Assembly: GCA_049317705.1 (NCBI GenBank)
Contig: JBMOHT010000001.1
Coordinates: 1,267-65,266 of the forward strand
Origin: Bacteroidota bacterium
GTDB lineage: Bacteria > Bacteroidota > Ignavibacteria > UBA10030 > UBA8401
DNA: 64,000 bases
Direction: 5' to 3'
The notes beneath the pieces are model-generated. The model was not told the DNA's origin. It saw only the letters and a list, made by a program, of their open reading frames with translations, and searched no databases. Positions 4,542 to 9,476 of the stretch are shown one piece after another (the first letter of the stretch is position 1; each line of letters starts with the position of its first letter). The position numbers were made by a program, and so were the translations under genes.

Positions 4542-4730
4542 ATTGGTATGATTATTGTTTGATATCGATATAAATATACAAAAAAGTATCTTCGATGGAT
4601 ATTTTTATTGTTTAGACTATATCGGTCATAGTTAGTCCAATTTGCGATTTTTGAATAATTTCACAAGTTTGTCTTGCCCGATAAGGAATAAAAGTTTATA
4701 TTTACTTAGATTAAGTCTAAATAAGAATTA

Positions 4731-5165
4731 ATGGAACTTGAATTAGCAAAAGAAAACTTCACTAAGTATCTCAAATCTGGGAGTTACCGGATCACGCCGG
4801 AACGGTTTGTTATCCTTGAAGCGGTAATGAACTACGACGGTCATTTTGATGCTGATGAACTTTTCTTTCAGATGAAGACCGCAGGACAGAAAGTTTCAAG
4901 AGCGACAGTCTATAATACACTTGATCTTCTTCAGGACTGCGGATTGATCTCAAAATATCGATTCGGTGAGAACCATTCCCGATATGAACTGGCATTTGGA
5001 CGACCTCATCACCACCACTTGATCTGTCTTGAGTGCGGCGACATCATCGAGTTCGTGAATGACAGGATAGAAAAAGTACAAAAAGAAGTGTGTGAAGCGA
5101 ATAAATTCACAGTTCAAACGACCACACTTCAGATCTTTGGAATCTGTTCAAAATGCCAAAAATAA
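4731..5165 (+). CDS. fur: Fur-family transcriptional regulator
   Basis: 144 aa. The winged helix is SRATVYNTLDLL. Also has HHHHLICLECGDIIEF and a C-terminal CSKC (two CxxC pairs). Confidence 0.9.
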   Translation: MELELAKENFTKYLKSGSYRITPERFVILEAVMNYDGHFDADELFFQMKTAGQKVSRATVYNTLDLLQDCGLISKYRFGENHSRYELAFGRPHHHHLICLECGDIIEFVNDRIEKVQKEVCEANKFTVQTTTLQIFGICSKCQK

Positions 5166-5168
5166 ACT

Positions 5169-5396
5169 ATGAAAACATTAGCACAAACACCGGCAGGAAC
5201 TACGGTCACGATCTCCCATCTCGATTCACATCCGGACACATGTAACCGACTTCGCGAAGTCGGATTCTGTGAGAATGCGGAGATACGATTGGTGTCGAGC
5301 GGTTCATCACAATTGATCTGCGAAGTCTGCAATACAAGGATCGGTTTGAACTATACAACAGCAAATGCGATCGTTGTCTTGCCCAGTAAAGCGTAA
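5169..5396 (+). CDS. feoA: FeoA-family ferrous iron transport protein
   Basis: 75 aa. SH3-like FeoA pattern (RLREVGFCENAEIRLVS). Starts 3 nt after fur. Confidence 0.85.
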   Translation: MKTLAQTPAGTTVTISHLDSHPDTCNRLREVGFCENAEIRLVSSGSSQLICEVCNTRIGLNYTTANAIVVLPSKA

Positions 5397-5431
5397 TAAT
5401 TTTAGACCATTGAATTGCTTGTGCAATATTT

Positions 5432-7537
5432 ATGAATTCAGCTCCCCCGAAACCTCCCATCAGAACAATCGCCCTTATTGGAAATCCTAACTGCGGAAAG
5501 ACCACGCTCTTCAATGAACTGACCGGACTGCGTCAAAAAGTTGGGAACTATCCCGGTGTCACTGTTGAAAAAAAAGAAGGAAAGATCCAGATCGGATCTG
5601 AAGAGATCACGGTACTCGATCTTCCCGGGACCTATTCCCTTTCGGCAAATTCGCCAGACGAGAAAGTCGTGACGGATATTCTCTTCGGGAAAATCACGGG
5701 AACACCGCTTCCCGATATCATCGTCTTCGTTGCTGACGCAACAAATCTTGAACGGAATCTTTATCTGCTCAGCCAGGTGATCGACCTGAAGATCCCGACC
5801 GTTGTCGCACTGAATATGATCGACCGCATCCAGAGTTCGGGAATATCTATTGATACAGCTATGCTCCGGAATGATTTCGGGGTACAATTCATTCCGATGA
5901 TCGCTAGTAAAGGTATCGGGACGAAAGAATTGCTCTCGACATTCGATAATATTTCAATCAATACCGGTACGATCAGACAATGGAAATTGCCTGATCCTGT
6001 GAGGGTAGAACACAACGAACTTGTTGCGATCCTCATTGACAGTGAGAAGATGACGGAACCTGCTGCTTTTCATGAAGCGCAATTGCTACTTTCTACACCG
6101 AAAGATGTCACCGCATTTTCAGATGATTATTCCGACACCACCCTTTCCCATCTTCAGCGGGACCATGAACATCTCAGACTCTCCGGTATTGACAGACATT
6201 CTGTGTTCGTAGAATCCCGTTTTCGTTGGACCAACAGTGTCTTTAAAAAGAGTGTCCGGCAAACAAAGCGTCGTGGACAGAATACGATCCATGATTCTAT
6301 TGATGCAGTACTGACGCACCGCATCTGGGGATTTGTGATCTTTTTTGCACTGATGGGGGTGATGTTCCAAACGATCTTTACCTGGGCAAATTATCCCATG
6401 GAATTGATCGGATCCGCTTTCGATATTCTGGCACAGACTGTCTCCGCAATCATTCCTGAAGGGGACTTGCAGAGTCTTATTACCCGCGGTATCATCGGCG
6501 GCGTCGGCGCAGTGGTCACGTTCCTCCCTCAGATATTGTTCCTCTTCCTCTTTCTCGGATTTTTGGAGGACACAGGATATATGGCAAGGGCAGCGTTCAT
6601 AATGGACAGAGTGATGAGTAAAGTTGGCCTGCATGGAAAGTCATTCATCCCATTATTGTCATCGTTTGCCTGTGCAATACCGGGAATCATGGCAACACGA
6701 ACGATCGAGAATCCGCGGGACCGACTTGTAACGATCCTTGTGGCACCGCTGATGAGCTGCAGTGCAAGGCTTCCGGTCTTCTCGCTGCTGATCGCATCAT
6801 TTGTTCCCAATATTCTGATCTTCGGATTTATCAGTCTTCCGGCGGTAGTTTTGATCTCGATGTATCTATTGGGATTGATCACGGCATTATTGACAGCTCG
6901 ACTATTGAAGAGCACTATATTAAAGGGACCTAAACCAGCGTTCATCATGGAACTGCCGCCGTACAGGATACCATCACTGAAGAATACATTCATTCATATG
7001 TGGGAACGGTCCATTCTCTTCTTAAAGAATGCGGGGACGATCATTCTAGGAGTGTCGATCGTATTATGGTTCCTCGCTACTTACCCAAAACTGGACCACG
7101 GGAATTCTTCAGAAAAACTTGCGCACAGTTTTGTCGGACGCGCAGGTCATGCCATTGAACCGGCACTGAAACCACTGGGTTTTGATTGGAAGATCGGGAT
7201 CGGGATCATCAGTTCATTACTTCAGCGTGAGGTTTTCGTCGGAACATTAGGAACGATCTATAATATCGAGCATGCGGACGAGGGTTCTACTACATTAAAG
7301 CAACAGATGTTGAATGATAAAGATCCTGTAACGGGATCTCCGACATTCTCATTGTTGACCGCTCTCTGCATTATGGTGTATTATGTCCTTGCCATGCAGT
7401 GCTTATCTACCGTTGCGGTGGTTCGGCGAGAAACGAACGGTTGGAAATGGCCGACTATTCAATTTGTCTACATGACACTGCTGGCATACAGCGGAACATT
7501 CATCACGTATAGGATAGGGTTATGGATACTCTCTTAA
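5432..7537 (+). CDS. feoB: Ferrous iron transporter FeoB
   Basis: 701 aa. N-terminal G-domain IALIGNPNCGKTTLFNELTG followed by a polytopic gate domain. Confidence 0.95.
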   Translation: MNSAPPKPPIRTIALIGNPNCGKTTLFNELTGLRQKVGNYPGVTVEKKEGKIQIGSEEITVLDLPGTYSLSANSPDEKVVTDILFGKITGTPLPDIIVFVADATNLERNLYLLSQVIDLKIPTVVALNMIDRIQSSGISIDTAMLRNDFGVQFIPMIASKGIGTKELLSTFDNISINTGTIRQWKLPDPVRVEHNELVAILIDSEKMTEPAAFHEAQLLLSTPKDVTAFSDDYSDTTLSHLQRDHEHLRLSGIDRHSVFVESRFRWTNSVFKKSVRQTKRRGQNTIHDSIDAVLTHRIWGFVIFFALMGVMFQTIFTWANYPMELIGSAFDILAQTVSAIIPEGDLQSLITRGIIGGVGAVVTFLPQILFLFLFLGFLEDTGYMARAAFIMDRVMSKVGLHGKSFIPLLSSFACAIPGIMATRTIENPRDRLVTILVAPLMSCSARLPVFSLLIASFVPNILIFGFISLPAVVLISMYLLGLITALLTARLLKSTILKGPKPAFIMELPPYRIPSLKNTFIHMWERSILFLKNAGTIILGVSIVLWFLATYPKLDHGNSSEKLAHSFVGRAGHAIEPALKPLGFDWKIGIGIISSLLQREVFVGTLGTIYNIEHADEGSTTLKQQMLNDKDPVTGSPTFSLLTALCIMVYYVLAMQCLSTVAVVRRETNGWKWPTIQFVYMTLLAYSGTFITYRIGLWILS

Positions 7538-7689
7538 TGGATTGGCAGGAGAGTATATCACTGCTGATCGTTCTCATCAGTACGTTGCTTCTGATACGCT
7601 CAATGCTGAAAAAAAGGAAAACGAATTCGAACTGCGCTTCATGCGCTCTGATGAATTCACAGACGAAGAACAAATCCAACTCTCAATAA
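7537..7689 (+). CDS. FeoB-associated Cys-rich small membrane protein (not in ORF track, 50 aa)
   Basis: My own reading. The ATG at 7537 overlaps the feoB stop (TAATG). The product is MDWQESISLLIVLISTLLLIRSMLKKRKTNSNCASCALMNSQTKNKSNSQ, with stop TAA at 7687-7689. It has one TM helix, a basic stretch and a CxxC. Confidence 0.7.
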   Translation: MDWQESISLLIVLISTLLLIRSMLKKRKTNSNCASCALMNSQTKNKSNSQ

Positions 7690-7783
7690 TCGATAATATT
7701 ACATCGTTCACTTGCTTTGCTATATATCAATTGTCCATTGAACCACTCTCAATGAACTAAATCTTTTTTTCGGTAACGCTAAC

Positions 7784-8605
7784 ATGAGACACTTCACTTC
7801 TCAATCATTGCTCATCCTATTCATGCTCATTCTCCCTGCCGAATTCATTCAAGCGAACGAGCGGCGTTTCGGTTTCACGTATGAATCTTCTGTGCTCCCT
7901 GCCGGAGTACGGGAGATCGAATTATGGACTACCGACAGACGCGGGCGAGGATATTTCTATCATCGATTGGATCAGCGGATCGAATTTGAATTCGGCGTGA
8001 CGGACAACCTGATGTCAGCATTCTATCTTAATTCAACATCGCGGACCAAAGACGATAATGGAGACGCCCTTGGAGGAATGAACGCTTCATCCATAGAAGT
8101 CAGTATCTCCAATGAGTGGAAATATAAATTAATGGACAGAACGGCCGATCAATTCGGGTGCGCAATCTATGGTGAATTTACTCTTGCGACTGATATGTAT
8201 GGGCTCGAATCGAAATTGATCTTTGATAAACAAATTCAGCATATCCTTGTTGCTGCAGATATTACCGGCGAATATGAAGCATCGTCGGACATTAAAAACG
8301 GTATTGAAGAAATTGAGACAGAGGTCTCTCTCAAGCCGGGAATCGCCGCCGCTTATGTCGCAGACAACGGTTTCGGTGCAGGCATGGAATTACGGAGCAA
8401 TAATATCTTCATTTCGGGTTCATTACAACACGCCTCCCTCTTTGCCGGCCCCACTATTTCCTACGCTTCAGAGGCGATGTGGTTCACAATTTCATTCATG
8501 CCGCAGATCCATAGTTTTGCCGGTGGAACGACTGCGAGCAAAGATCTAGATCTGGGTGAATTTGAAAAATTTCAAACACGGCTATTGCTCTCGTTCCGTC
8601 TATAA
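7784..8605 (+). CDS. Putative outer-membrane beta-barrel protein (uncharacterised)
   Basis: 273 aa. Signal peptide MRHFTSQSLLILFMLILPAEFIQA. Alternating hydrophobic strands run throughout and the C-terminus is LLLSFRL. Confidence 0.55.
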   Translation: MRHFTSQSLLILFMLILPAEFIQANERRFGFTYESSVLPAGVREIELWTTDRRGRGYFYHRLDQRIEFEFGVTDNLMSAFYLNSTSRTKDDNGDALGGMNASSIEVSISNEWKYKLMDRTADQFGCAIYGEFTLATDMYGLESKLIFDKQIQHILVAADITGEYEASSDIKNGIEEIETEVSLKPGIAAAYVADNGFGAGMELRSNNIFISGSLQHASLFAGPTISYASEAMWFTISFMPQIHSFAGGTTASKDLDLGEFEKFQTRLLLSFRL

Positions 8606-8971
8606 ATGAAAACATTCGCATTGGCAACTCTTGCCATATTTTTCGGATGTGCGGTCGCATTACCTGAACCAACCGAGGAGGATCTTCGGCGGTTCCGCCA
8701 ATCTGATTCAACGCTGACACTACAATCGATCAGCGACGCGAGAACAATGTATGTCAGAAAATGCTCCGGTTGTCACAGTCTCTATCTTCCGGGTTCGTTC
8801 AAACGTGATCAATGGAAAGAAATTGTCCGTGTCATGGGGCAAAGGGCAAAGATCGGTCCCAGCGATGAGTCGATGATCATGCGTTATTTGACGCTCTATT
8901 CATCCGCTGCAATTGGACCTATATCAGATTCAGTCCATACCAAGACTCATAACAGTAATGCAGAGAAATAG
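8606..8971 (+). CDS. Putative mono-haem c-type cytochrome lipoprotein
   Basis: 121 aa. Lipobox-like LAIFFGC and a single haem motif KCSGCH. The ATG directly abuts the stop of the barrel gene (TAAATG). Confidence 0.6.
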   Translation: MKTFALATLAIFFGCAVALPEPTEEDLRRFRQSDSTLTLQSISDARTMYVRKCSGCHSLYLPGSFKRDQWKEIVRVMGQRAKIGPSDESMIMRYLTLYSSAAIGPISDSVHTKTHNSNAEK

Positions 8972-9078: not shown

Positions 9079-9420
9079 TTGAAAGAGTATATGGAACCAA
9101 CAAACGAAACACCTCAAGAGATCACCAAAGAACGGATCTATGCTGCATTAAAAGACGTGTATGACCCCGAGATCCCGGTCAGCATCGTTGACCTGGGTCT
9201 TGTATATGATGTAAAGATCATCGATGATTGGGTCGGAGTAAAAATGACGCTGACATCACAGGGATGCGGTCTTTCGACACAGATCGCCAATAATGTGCGG
9301 GAACGAGTTGCCGCCCTACAGGGCGTGGCTGATGCTGATGTCCGGATCGTCTGGCAACCGGCATGGAATCCTTCGATGATGAGTGAAGAAGCGAAGAAGA
9401 AAGTTCAGTTCTTCGGGTAA
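9079..9420 (+). CDS. DUF59/SufT-like Fe-S cluster assembly protein
   Basis: 113 aa. Contains VYDPEIPVSIVDLGLVYDV and TLTSQGCG, typical of the MIP18/DUF59 family. The start may instead be the ATG at 9091. Confidence 0.8.
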   Translation: MKEYMEPTNETPQEITKERIYAALKDVYDPEIPVSIVDLGLVYDVKIIDDWVGVKMTLTSQGCGLSTQIANNVRERVAALQGVADADVRIVWQPAWNPSMMSEEAKKKVQFFG

Positions 9421-9437: not shown

Positions 9438-9476
9438 TGAAGGCATTTCGCTGACCGCGGAGTGCCTTTTGTTTTC
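9438..9476 (+). terminator. Probable rho-independent terminator after the DUF59 gene
   Basis: Stem AAGGCA (9440-9445) pairs with TGCCTT (9463-9468), followed by TTGTTTT. Confidence 0.55.

What the first reader, a model, noticed from the sequence alone, without database searches (positions are those of the whole stretch)
4731..8971. Feo iron-uptake operon extended by a translationally coupled beta-barrel plus CxxCH lipoprotein pair
Seen in the sequence: fur, feoA, feoB and the small Cys-rich protein are packed with 3-nt, 35-nt and overlapping junctions. After 94 nt come a 273-aa signal-peptide beta-barrel and, abutting its stop codon (TAAATG), a 121-aa lipoprotein with a single CSGCH haem motif. 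The 94-nt spacer begins with GATAAT-type hexamers (AATAAT-c-GATAAT-ATTACA, 7685-7703) that resemble a Fur box at about 10 of 19 positions against the E. coli consensus, so the match is weak.

Established knowledge: porin-cytochrome modules (Cyc2, MtrAB/PioAB) move electrons across outer membranes to or from iron.

Inference: this may be a minimal two-gene porin-cytochrome that reduces extracellular Fe(III) to feed FeoB, or that handles Fe(II) at the surface. I am not aware of a described Feo-linked module of this type.
Basis: partly seen in the sequence, partly recalled or inferred. Interest (0 to 1): 0.6.

Follow-up and report, generated by a model that had tools for sequence, protein, structure and literature searches.

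The report
Outer-membrane barrel with tethered monohaem cytochrome
Behind the iron-uptake genes fur-feoAB lies a real, unstudied gene pair: a small 12-stranded outer-membrane barrel and a one-haem cytochrome anchored beside it. The pair occurs in several bacterial phyla but sits next to iron-uptake genes only in this lineage, where it most likely handles iron redox at the outer membrane.

Summary
The "Fur box" at 7685 is a chance-level match.

The barrel is a 12-stranded outer-membrane protein and a weak member of Pfam DUF6662. Its conserved residues face the lumen and are mostly charged. The partner is a lipoprotein cytochrome with one haem. Its Cys-x-x-Cys-His motif, a Trp and a Met are invariant, and its fold matches the N-terminal half of dihaem cytochrome DHC.

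The pair is kept together in 79 of 80 loci from Bacteroidota, Myxococcota, Fibrobacterota and Elusimicrobiota. One natural protein fuses the cytochrome to the barrel's C-terminus, which places the haem domain at the periplasmic mouth. feoB is adjacent only in the Ignavibacteria-type clade: 23 of 24 relatives' loci. In 54 of the 80 surveyed loci it is not nearby. In relatives that lack the pair, the same slot behind feoB holds ApbE/FMN, CbiX/PepSY or TonB-receptor modules.

My reading is a channel-plus-cytochrome device that works on iron at the periplasmic face and was recruited here to serve Feo. It is not an Mtr-type conduit across the membrane. It resembles Cyc2 in layout but fails the Cyc2 membership tests. 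I found no literature on it.

The parts
4674..4702 (+). sigma-70-like promoter of fur (TTGCCC-17-TATATT)
   Evidence: The TTGAC...TATATT arrangement is conserved in the SDR-fur spacer of 13 relatives.
4705..4723 (.). conserved near-palindrome TTAGATTAAGTCTAAATA just downstream of the -10 box; operator-like, binding protein unknown
   Evidence: Nearly invariant in 13 relatives. Unique in the window at up to 3 mismatches. Unique in the genome beyond the control rate.
4731..5165 (+). Fur-family regulator
   Evidence: Pfam FUR, E 3e-35.
5169..5396 (+). FeoA
   Evidence: Pfam FeoA, E 1.6e-11.
5432..7537 (+). FeoB ferrous-iron transporter
   Evidence: TIGR00437, E 2.5e-163.
7522..7689 (+). FeoB-associated Cys-rich small membrane protein; true start may be 7537
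   Evidence: Pfam PF12669, 27.3 bits, at the cut-off. Conserved after feoB in relatives.
7690..7783 (+). 94-nt spacer with no + strand terminator-like site in the scan and a chance-level Fur-like match at 7685-7703
   Evidence: It lacks the covarying hairpin that fills this spacer in many relatives.
7784..8605 (+). 12-stranded outer-membrane beta-barrel, DUF6662-like, with a conserved charged lumen
   Evidence: Pfam PF20367, 44.5 bits. AF2 model has blockwise pLDDT 90-98 over mature residues 31-270 and 12 strands. Foldseek hits FapF, COG4313 channel, NanC and PcoB. 42 residues are at least 90% conserved, 14 acidic and 8 basic, mostly on the lumen-facing side of the strands.
8606..8971 (+). monohaem c-type cytochrome lipoprotein ('half-DHC'), translationally abutted to the barrel (TAAATG)
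   Evidence: C53, C56, H57, W70 and M77 are invariant and lipobox C15 is at least 90% conserved in 57 homologues. Profile hit to DHC N-domains 3u99 (6e-7) and 2fwt (4e-6). Foldseek prob 0.98, rmsd 2.0 A over 60 residues.
9079..9420 (+). SufT/DUF59-type Fe-S assembly protein, often kept downstream of the pair
   Evidence: Pfam FeS_assembly_P, E 2.5e-19. Within a few hundred bases downstream in at least 8 of the 24 relatives' loci and further downstream in several more.
9439..9469 (+). terminator-like hairpin; no + strand terminator-like site lies in any intergenic gap between fur and here
   Evidence: 13-pair stem followed by a T run.

Best explanation
The two genes encode one physical unit at the outer membrane.

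The first part is a 12-stranded barrel whose lumen is lined by a strongly conserved, net-acidic set of Glu, Asp, Lys and Arg residues. It is a candidate cation channel. The second part is a small His/Met-type monohaem cytochrome c held at the barrel's periplasmic mouth. It is tethered by a lipid anchor here, and by a covalent fusion to the barrel's C-terminus in one relative.

In the Ignavibacteria-type lineage the unit has been recruited into the fur-feoAB-(Cys-rich)-...-sufT iron locus. There it most likely acts as the outer-membrane and periplasmic front end of ferrous-iron uptake. Iron passes the barrel, and the haem, fed from the periplasmic electron pool, keeps or makes it Fe(II) for FeoB.

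Shown: the gene structure, the folds, the haem motif, pair conservation, the natural fusion and the Feo synteny.

Inferred: physical docking, periplasmic orientation, cation selectivity, iron as the substrate, and the direction of electron flow.
For: - Pair kept in 79 of 80 loci across phyla.
- A natural barrel-linker-cytochrome fusion, P0292, 371 aa, is present in two assemblies.
- The barrel has 12 strands, and its conserved residues lie on the lumen-facing side, 14 acidic against 8 basic.
- CxxCH, W and M are invariant in the cytochrome and it has a DHC N-domain fold.
- The folded domain begins about 5 residues after the lipid Cys, so the tether is very short.
- feoB-barrel-cytochrome order holds in 23 of 24 relatives. 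The Feo-linked rows form one well-supported clade down to about 43-46% barrel identity.
- In relatives without the pair, the slot behind feoB holds ApbE plus FMN_bind plus a membrane protein plus a 420-aa signal-peptide protein, or CbiX plus PepSY_TM-like, or a TonB receptor. These are other envelope redox or iron modules.
- A second recurrent context is an Fe-S-repair RIC-like hemerythrin plus a LuxR regulator, in about 9 of the 54 loci without feoB.
- The genome encodes cytochrome c maturation proteins.
Against: - Outside one clade the pair is not near any iron gene. 54 of 80 loci lack feoB, and their immediate neighbours are very mixed (102 Pfam families among the matches of 92 proteins).
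- No iron-responsive operator was found before the barrel. In many relatives a terminator-like hairpin separates it from feo.
- Ion selectivity, haem potential, orientation and docking are untested. The AF2 tool returned no coordinates or error map, so the interface is unknown.
- A His/Met cytochrome may have too high a potential to reduce many Fe(III) species.
- Fe(II) can cross general porins without any help.
Confidence: 0.4

Rival explanations
1. General outer-membrane-anchored electron-transfer module whose substrate is not iron. It might serve a periplasmic peroxidase, NO or ROS handling, or another small redox-active solute that enters through the barrel. On this view the Feo adjacency in Ignavibacteria is a lineage-specific accident of gene order.
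For: - Most loci have no iron transporter nearby.
- Scattered neighbours include di-haem cytochrome c peroxidase (2), YceI (3-4), universal stress proteins (5 loci) and RIC-like hemerythrin plus LuxR (about 9).
- The nearest solved relatives, DHC proteins, are soluble electron donors (established knowledge, not tested here).
Against: - Feo linkage is maintained across a deep clade and is not a one-off.
- The alternative occupants of the same slot are iron or redox uptake modules.
- The barrel's conserved acidic lumen argues for a specific charged substrate.
Confidence: 0.28
2. Split, non-homologous analogue of Cyc2. Dissolved Fe(II) enters the barrel and is oxidised by the haem at the periplasmic mouth, either for energy or to limit Fe(II) influx, and the electrons go to periplasmic carriers.
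For: - The layout matches the published Cyc2 model: one haem, a small barrel, and the cytochrome at the periplasmic opening so that Fe2+ must enter the pore (PMC8406198).
- A fused form exists.
- The invariant Met suggests His/Met ligation and hence a fairly high potential (inference).
- The record titles of several carrier MAGs name groundwater samples.
Against: - The Cyc2 signature AxPxFAR[Q/K][T/Y] before CxxCH is absent. The local consensus is GR.LY..KCSGCH.
- The barrel has 12 strands, not 16, and the cytochrome lies C-terminal or in a separate gene, not N-terminal.
- Oxidising Fe(II) at the periplasmic side risks Fe(III) precipitation.
- Placement behind an Fe(II) importer and a Fur gene fits acquisition better than removal.
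Confidence: 0.15
3. Trans-outer-membrane porin-cytochrome conduit that reduces extracellular Fe(III).
For: A barrel plus cytochrome pair sits next to feoB.
Against: - The barrel has 12 strands and the system has a single haem.
- The fusion topology and the absence of an acidic surface-export motif point to a periplasmic cytochrome.
- There is no MtrB/PioB or multihaem homology.
- No extracellular cytochrome partner is present in the locus.
Confidence: 0.05
4. The barrel is a dedicated translocon that exports its cognate lipoprotein to the cell surface, in the manner of Slam/T11SS or FapF.
For: - The best structural match is the FapF polypeptide transporter.
- Cargo-next-to-barrel gene order is typical of T11SS (established knowledge; bioRxiv 10.1101/2024.09.26.615229 appeared).
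Against: - Holo-cytochrome c is folded, with its haem covalently attached, in the periplasm. It could not pass a 12-strand pore.
- The natural fusion makes the cytochrome a permanent appendage of the barrel, not a cargo.
- There is no sequence homology to FapF or DUF560.
Confidence: 0.04

Closest known systems
Cyc2 fused cytochrome-porin of iron-oxidising bacteria (Keffer et al. 2021, PMC8406198)
   Same: One c-type haem is combined with a small outer-membrane barrel. The cytochrome is placed at the periplasmic opening, so the substrate must enter the pore. A fused version of the present pair exists (P0292).
   Different: - Barrel of 12 strands rather than 16.
- Cytochrome encoded downstream as a lipoprotein, or fused at the C-terminus, not at the N-terminus.
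- The Cyc2 signature motif is absent.
- The cytochrome fold is DHC-like.
- The context here is iron uptake (fur-feoAB), not iron respiration.
- Barrel homology to Cyc2 was not tested because no Cyc2 sequence was in hand.
MtrCAB / PioAB / MtoAB and Geobacter Pcc porin-cytochrome complexes
   Same: An outer-membrane barrel encoded next to a c-type cytochrome, with a link to iron.
   Different: Those systems use barrels of 20-26 strands that sheath deca- or octahaem wires spanning the membrane. Here the barrel has 12 strands, there is one haem, there is no homology, and the cytochrome is probably only periplasmic.
DHC dihaem cytochrome c (PF09626; PDB 2FWT, 2FW5, 3U99)
   Same: Best sequence-profile and fold match for the cytochrome, covering the N-terminal domain. 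The CxxCH, the following Pro and the Trp all align.
   Different: - Only one domain and one haem.
- Lipid-anchored.
- The invariant Met77 aligns to a non-ligand position in DHC.
- Always paired with a barrel rather than with SHP or cytochrome b.
12-stranded outer-membrane channels FapF, COG4313 (Pput2725), NanC and PcoB
   Same: Same strand number and overall barrel fold (TM-score normalised to the target 0.52-0.67). PcoB is a metal (copper) channel with an electronegative funnel.
   Different: Sequence identity is 8-12% and no family-level homology was detected. None of these has a cytochrome partner.
MnoP, the Mn2+-selective outer-membrane channel co-regulated with MntH in Bradyrhizobium (Hohle et al. 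2011; from my own knowledge, not checked here)
   Same: The concept of a dedicated outer-membrane channel that feeds an inner-membrane divalent-metal importer.
   Different: It has no redox partner. Homology was not tested.
DUF5777 barrel plus lipoprotein monohaem cytochrome of Bacteroidota
   Same: Same architecture. In 3 of the 8 plus-strand loci examined, a lipoprotein ORF of 112-151 aa with one CxxCH lies directly downstream of the barrel. The cytochromes are distantly alike (hhalign prob 95%).
   Different: The barrels show no detectable homology (hhalign prob 1.6%). The window's genome has no DUF5777.

Membership tests
Pfam DUF6662 (PF20367) | Score above the gathering threshold (27 bits) | tested here: met
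   44.5 bits, E 1.9e-11, but only the C-terminal third aligns well (residues 161-270 to profile positions 196-305 of 308). 36 of 38 homologues also hit. A divergent subfamily.
c-type cytochrome | CxxCH haem-attachment motif conserved, plus a candidate sixth ligand | tested here: met
   C53, C56, H57 and M77 are invariant in 57 sequences. Maturation genes are present in the genome. Haem binding itself is not testable here.
DHC dihaem cytochrome c (PF09626) | Two haem-binding motifs in two domains | tested here: not met
   There is a single CxxCH. The match covers only profile positions 1-58 of 116. The fold matches the N-domain only.
Bacterial lipoprotein | Signal peptide ending in a lipobox with an invariant Cys | tested here: met
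   FFGC at residues 12-15. Cys15 is at least 90% conserved and is preceded by G, A or S in nearly all homologues printed.
Surface-exposed Bacteroidota lipoprotein (LES-type) | Acidic export motif at about +2 to +5 after the lipid Cys (rule from my own knowledge of Lauber et al. 2016) | tested here: not met
   Residues after the Cys are [AS][SAG][SA][LI]P.P or .[SP]ALY.P. No Asp/Glu run occurs at +2 to +5.
Cyc2 fused cytochrome-porin | AxPxFAR[Q/K][T/Y] motif 5 residues upstream of CxxCH | tested here: not met
   The consensus here is GR.LY..KCSGCH. The motif definition comes from PMC8406198.
Cyc2 fused cytochrome-porin | 16-stranded porin with an N-terminal fused cytochrome domain | tested here: not met
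   12 strands. The cytochrome is a separate downstream gene, and the natural fusion is C-terminal.
MtrAB/PioAB/Pcc porin-cytochrome | Barrel of at least 20 strands enclosing a multihaem cytochrome | tested here: not met
   12 strands and one haem. No MtrB_PioB or multihaem Pfam hit.
Feo operon component | Conserved gene order with feoB | tested here: inconclusive
   Met in the window's order (23 of 24 loci). Not met in 54 of the 80 loci surveyed across phyla.
Fur regulon member | Fur operator in its own promoter region | tested here: not met
   The best match in the spacer is 11/19, which is the chance level. Regulation by read-through from the fur promoter is not testable here.
FapF / COG4313-type 12-strand channels | Sequence-family membership | tested here: not met
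   Fold similarity only: E 6.5e-10, 8-12% identity. No Pfam hit to those families.

The most novel reading that the evidence does not exclude
The DUF6662-like barrel with its tethered or fused half-DHC cytochrome is a distinct, convergent class of outer-membrane cytochrome-barrel device. It would stand alongside Cyc2 and the Mtr/Pcc conduits. It performs metal (iron) redox at the periplasmic mouth of an acid-lined 12-strand channel. In Ignavibacteria it would be the long-missing outer-membrane partner of the Feo ferrous-iron system.
Probability: 0.25. Interest if true: 0.8.

Novelty: new variant of a known kind. Interest (0 to 1): 0.6.

Why it matters
How ferrous iron crosses the outer membrane and is kept reduced on its way to FeoB is largely unknown. 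Feo has no established outer-membrane component.

A conserved barrel-cytochrome unit that is hard-wired to fur-feoAB in one lineage gives a concrete, testable candidate. So does the finding that ApbE/FMN or PepSY modules take its place in sister genomes.

More broadly, the family has 1,687 representative clusters at E ≤ 0.001 across several phyla. It is never mentioned in the searched literature, and it shows that small 12-strand barrels with a dedicated monohaem cytochrome are a recurrent envelope design.

If the substrate is not iron, the module is still an unexplored redox function of the outer membrane.

Tried and rejected
- A block alignment of the fusion with unpaired barrel and cytochrome rows misaligned the cytochromes. 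Adding 12 in-frame read-through pairs from related loci to the window's own fusion row fixed this.
- The AF2 tool returns no coordinates or error map. The barrel-cytochrome interface could therefore not be read from the fusion model. A pTM of 0.70 is ambiguous.
- Rfam found nothing at gathering thresholds for the conserved spacer element of relatives. At the E-value threshold there were only weak terminator-like hits on the opposite strand.
- E. coli Fur-box scan: chance level.
- The conserved palindrome before fur has no other copies in the genome, so it defines no regulon.
- Homology between DUF6662-like and DUF5777 barrels was rejected (hhalign prob 1.6%).
- I looked for a consistent partner gene outside Ignavibacteria and found none. 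Matches among the 92 immediate neighbours span 102 Pfam families, and among the 78 next neighbours 111.
- Literature searches for DUF6662, PF20367, PF09626, DUF5777, and Feo plus outer-membrane cytochrome returned nothing relevant.
Co-transcription and iron response could not be checked.
- The translocon idea, prompted by the FapF hit, was considered and given low weight.

Full report
OBSERVATION

- fur is 4731-5165.
- feoA is 5169-5396.
- feoB is 5432-7537.
- A small Cys-rich ORF overlaps the end of feoB (7522 or 7537 to 7689).
- A 94-nt spacer follows.
- A 273-aa ORF runs 7784-8605.
- After TAAATG, a 121-aa ORF runs 8606-8971 and has one CSGCH.

Pfam and NCBIfam confirm FUR, FeoA, FeoB and the FeoB-associated Cys-rich protein. 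The next gene, 9079-9420, is a SufT/DUF59 Fe-S assembly protein. The scan finds no + strand terminator-like site in any intergenic gap between fur and the hairpin at 9439-9469. One long transcript is therefore possible but is not shown.

The Fur-like hexamers at 7685-7703 score 11/19 against the E. coli consensus. In the window, 417 of 63,982 positions do at least as well. That match carries no weight.

A much better operator candidate lies upstream of fur. The near-palindrome TTAGATTAAGTCTAAATA (4705-4723) follows a TTGCCC-17-TATATT promoter. It is almost invariant in 13 relatives, but it is unique in the genome.

THE TWO PROTEINS

Barrel. It matches Pfam DUF6662 weakly (44.5 bits, C-terminal third). 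Because the barrel and cytochrome are in the same frame, I translated 7784-8968 with the stop codon read through. I predicted this pseudo-fusion with an alignment that contained, besides the window's own fusion row, 12 true in-frame pairs from related loci plus unpaired homologues. The model has mean pLDDT 89.7 and pTM 0.70. It shows 12 strands for the barrel and a four-helix cytochrome domain.

Foldseek places the barrel with 12-stranded channels:
- FapF (E 6.5e-10)
- COG4313 channel 4RL8
- NanC
- PcoB

Sequence identity to these is 8-12%.

In an alignment of 38 homologues down to 31% identity, 42 residues are at least 90% conserved. Fourteen are Asp or Glu and eight are Lys or Arg. Most of those within strands fall on the less hydrophobic, lumen-facing side. 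That pattern is expected for a specific charged pathway or an internal salt-bridge network. It is not expected for a general porin.

Cytochrome. It has a lipobox (FFGC, Cys15). Across 57 homologues C53, C56, H57, W70 and M77 are invariant. A profile search of the PDB finds only the N-terminal domains of the dihaem cytochromes DHC well below E = 1e-4 (3U99 at 6e-7, 2FWT at 4e-6). A separate AF2 model (pLDDT 84.9) matches the same domains (probability 0.98, rmsd 2.0 A over 60 residues). It is therefore a single-domain "half-DHC".

In that model, residues 21-30 already have pLDDT 95. The folded domain thus starts about five residues after the lipid Cys, so the tether is very short. The genome encodes cytochrome c maturation proteins.

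THE PAIR IS A UNIT

In the window's order, the barrel is followed by the cytochrome in all 23 relatives' loci that extend beyond the barrel. In a scan of one genome per species, 198 loci encode a relative of the barrel. Of the best 80, 79 have the cytochrome immediately downstream, and the remaining contig ends 95 bp after the barrel. The carriers are Ignavibacteria-type MAGs, Bacteroidales, Flavobacteriales, Sphingobacteriales, Myxococcota, Fibrobacterota and Elusimicrobiota.

A search of 1.84 billion representative proteins finds 1,687 family representatives at E ≤ 0.001 and 369 at E ≤ 1e-30. One of them, P0292 (371 aa), is a natural fusion. It consists of the barrel, a linker of about 25 residues that keeps the conserved LPIPDEE segment, and then the cytochrome domain with CIRCH, the Trp and the Met. 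It has no signal peptide or lipobox in between. It is encoded identically in two assemblies.

Barrels of this type have both termini in the periplasm. This is established knowledge and is also stated for porins in PMC8406198. The fusion therefore argues that the cytochrome sits at the periplasmic face, and that the lipid anchor of the two-gene form simply keeps it there. The residues after the lipid Cys lack the acidic motif that marks surface-exposed lipoproteins in Bacteroidota (the rule is from my own knowledge).

LINK TO IRON

feoB lies directly upstream in 23 of 24 loci from the window's order. It lies upstream in 26 of the 80 surveyed loci. On a maximum-likelihood tree of the barrels, 21 of the 22 Feo-linked rows that could be placed on the tree fall in one well-supported clade of 27. 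Inside that clade, one sub-clade has lost the link. The Myxococcota/Fibrobacterota/Elusimicrobiota clade and the Bacteroidia clade have no feoB within 6 kb, apart from one long-branch Feo-linked row placed beside the Bacteroidia clade. The association is therefore old and maintained, but lineage-specific.

Outside this clade the flanks are heterogeneous. Pfam matches among the 92 immediate neighbours span 102 families, and among the 78 next neighbours 111. The only recurrent neighbours are:
- a RIC-like Fe-S-repair hemerythrin (TIGR03652, E 2.6e-20, below the cut-off) with a LuxR-type regulator, in about 9 loci from two different barrel clades and in two different arrangements
- universal stress proteins
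- YceI
- two cytochrome c peroxidases

Relatives of the same genus and family that lack the pair still have fur-feoA-feoB-(Cys-rich). Behind it, in the same slot, they carry other envelope modules:
- a 420-aa signal-peptide protein plus FMN_bind plus a small membrane protein plus ApbE (three genomes)
- CbiX plus a PepSY_TM-like protein (one genome; also present together with the pair in L060)
- a TonB-dependent receptor (two genomes)

This positional equivalence is the best argument that, in this lineage, the pair serves iron acquisition by envelope redox chemistry.

REGULATION IN RELATIVES

Many relatives have a spacer of 180-200 nt before the barrel. It contains a hairpin with five covarying pairs, flanked by an A run and a short T run. 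A conserved AAGATAnnGAA box follows. Rfam has no match for it. It looks like a terminator plus promoter. In those genomes the pair may therefore be expressed separately from feo. The window's 94-nt spacer lacks this element.

MECHANISM

I commit to the following model. The barrel is a narrow, acid-lined channel. The cytochrome is docked at its periplasmic opening. In this locus the unit supplies FeoB with Fe(II), with iron passing through the barrel and the haem keeping or making it ferrous.

The gene structure, folds, motifs, pairing, fusion and synteny are shown. The docking geometry, orientation, ion selectivity, substrate and direction of electron flow are inferred. I put this model at about 0.4.

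The main rival, at about 0.28, is a general periplasmic-face redox module with a non-iron substrate.

A Cyc2-like Fe(II) oxidase comes next at about 0.15. The published Cyc2 model has the same logic: one haem at the periplasmic mouth of a small barrel that Fe2+ must enter (PMC8406198). The Cyc2 signature motif, strand number and domain order are all not met here.

COMPARISON WITH EARLIER NOTES OF THIS SCAN

Earlier notes describe DUF5777 barrels paired with lipoprotein cytochromes in Bacteroidota. I confirmed that architecture in 3 of the 8 plus-strand loci examined. The barrels are not detectably homologous to this one (hhalign probability 1.6%). The cytochromes are only distantly alike (probability 95%, partly owing to the signal peptide and haem motif).

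LIMITS

- No interface information came from AF2.
- The 80 loci surveyed are the best-scoring of 198, so the proportions are not unbiased.
- Several record titles of the related MAG contigs carry implausible species names, so taxonomy rests on the tree and on the anonymous GTDB ranks.

Noticed in passing
window 4674-4723: A sigma-70-like promoter (TTGCCC-17-TATATT) is followed by the near-palindrome TTAGATTAAGTCTAAATA just before fur. Both are almost invariant in 13 relatives. The palindrome is unique in the genome, so it looks like an autoregulatory operator that differs from the E. coli Fur box.
   Followed up: partly
L053:5808-6000 and the equivalent spacers of L054, L059-L061, L064, L065, L071-L073, L075, L076, L086: A conserved element of 180-200 nt lies between feoB/Cys-rich and the barrel. 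It has a hairpin with 5 covarying pairs flanked by A and T runs, a second hairpin, and an AAGATAnnGAA box. It is absent from the window and has no Rfam match. It is probably a terminator plus promoter, but a regulatory RNA is not excluded.
   Followed up: partly
L132, L133, L135 (downstream of feoB): Sister genomes without the pair carry, in the same slot, a 420-aa signal-peptide protein with no Pfam match, a weak FMN_bind protein, a 173-aa membrane protein and ApbE. This is a flavin-based envelope module linked to fur-feoAB.
   Followed up: partly
L134:3296-4821 and L060 (between feoB and the barrel): A secreted CbiX-like protein plus a PepSY_TM-like membrane protein sit behind feoB. In L060 they coexist with the barrel-cytochrome pair.
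   Followed up: partly
L157:3931-5046 / L158:3930-5045 (protein P0292): A natural single-polypeptide fusion of the barrel and the cytochrome domain, downstream of a GGDEF protein, with no iron genes nearby.
   Followed up: partly
L103:1149-3633; L067:1310-4085: A RIC-like Fe-S-repair hemerythrin and a LuxR-type regulator lie next to the pair in about 9 loci of two barrel clades. They are on the same strand in Bacteroidales and divergent in an Ignavibacteria-type sub-clade.
   Followed up: partly
L150:1381-2563, L151:1384-2619, L156:1375-2748: DUF5777 barrels of Bacteroidota are followed directly by a lipoprotein monohaem cytochrome. The architecture is the same as here, but the barrel is not homologous.
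   Followed up: partly
window 7522-7689: The start of the FeoB-associated Cys-rich ORF is ambiguous. It is either the ATG at 7522, a 16-nt overlap with feoB, or the ATG in TAATG at 7537.
   Followed up: no
L051, L052, L067, L068, L070 (record titles): Contigs that are clearly Ignavibacteria-like by gene content and by the tree carry titles such as Chitinophaga pinensis, Synechococcus sp., Syntrophomonadaceae, Acidobacteriota and Bacillota. These are probably mislabelled or mis-binned MAGs.
   Followed up: no
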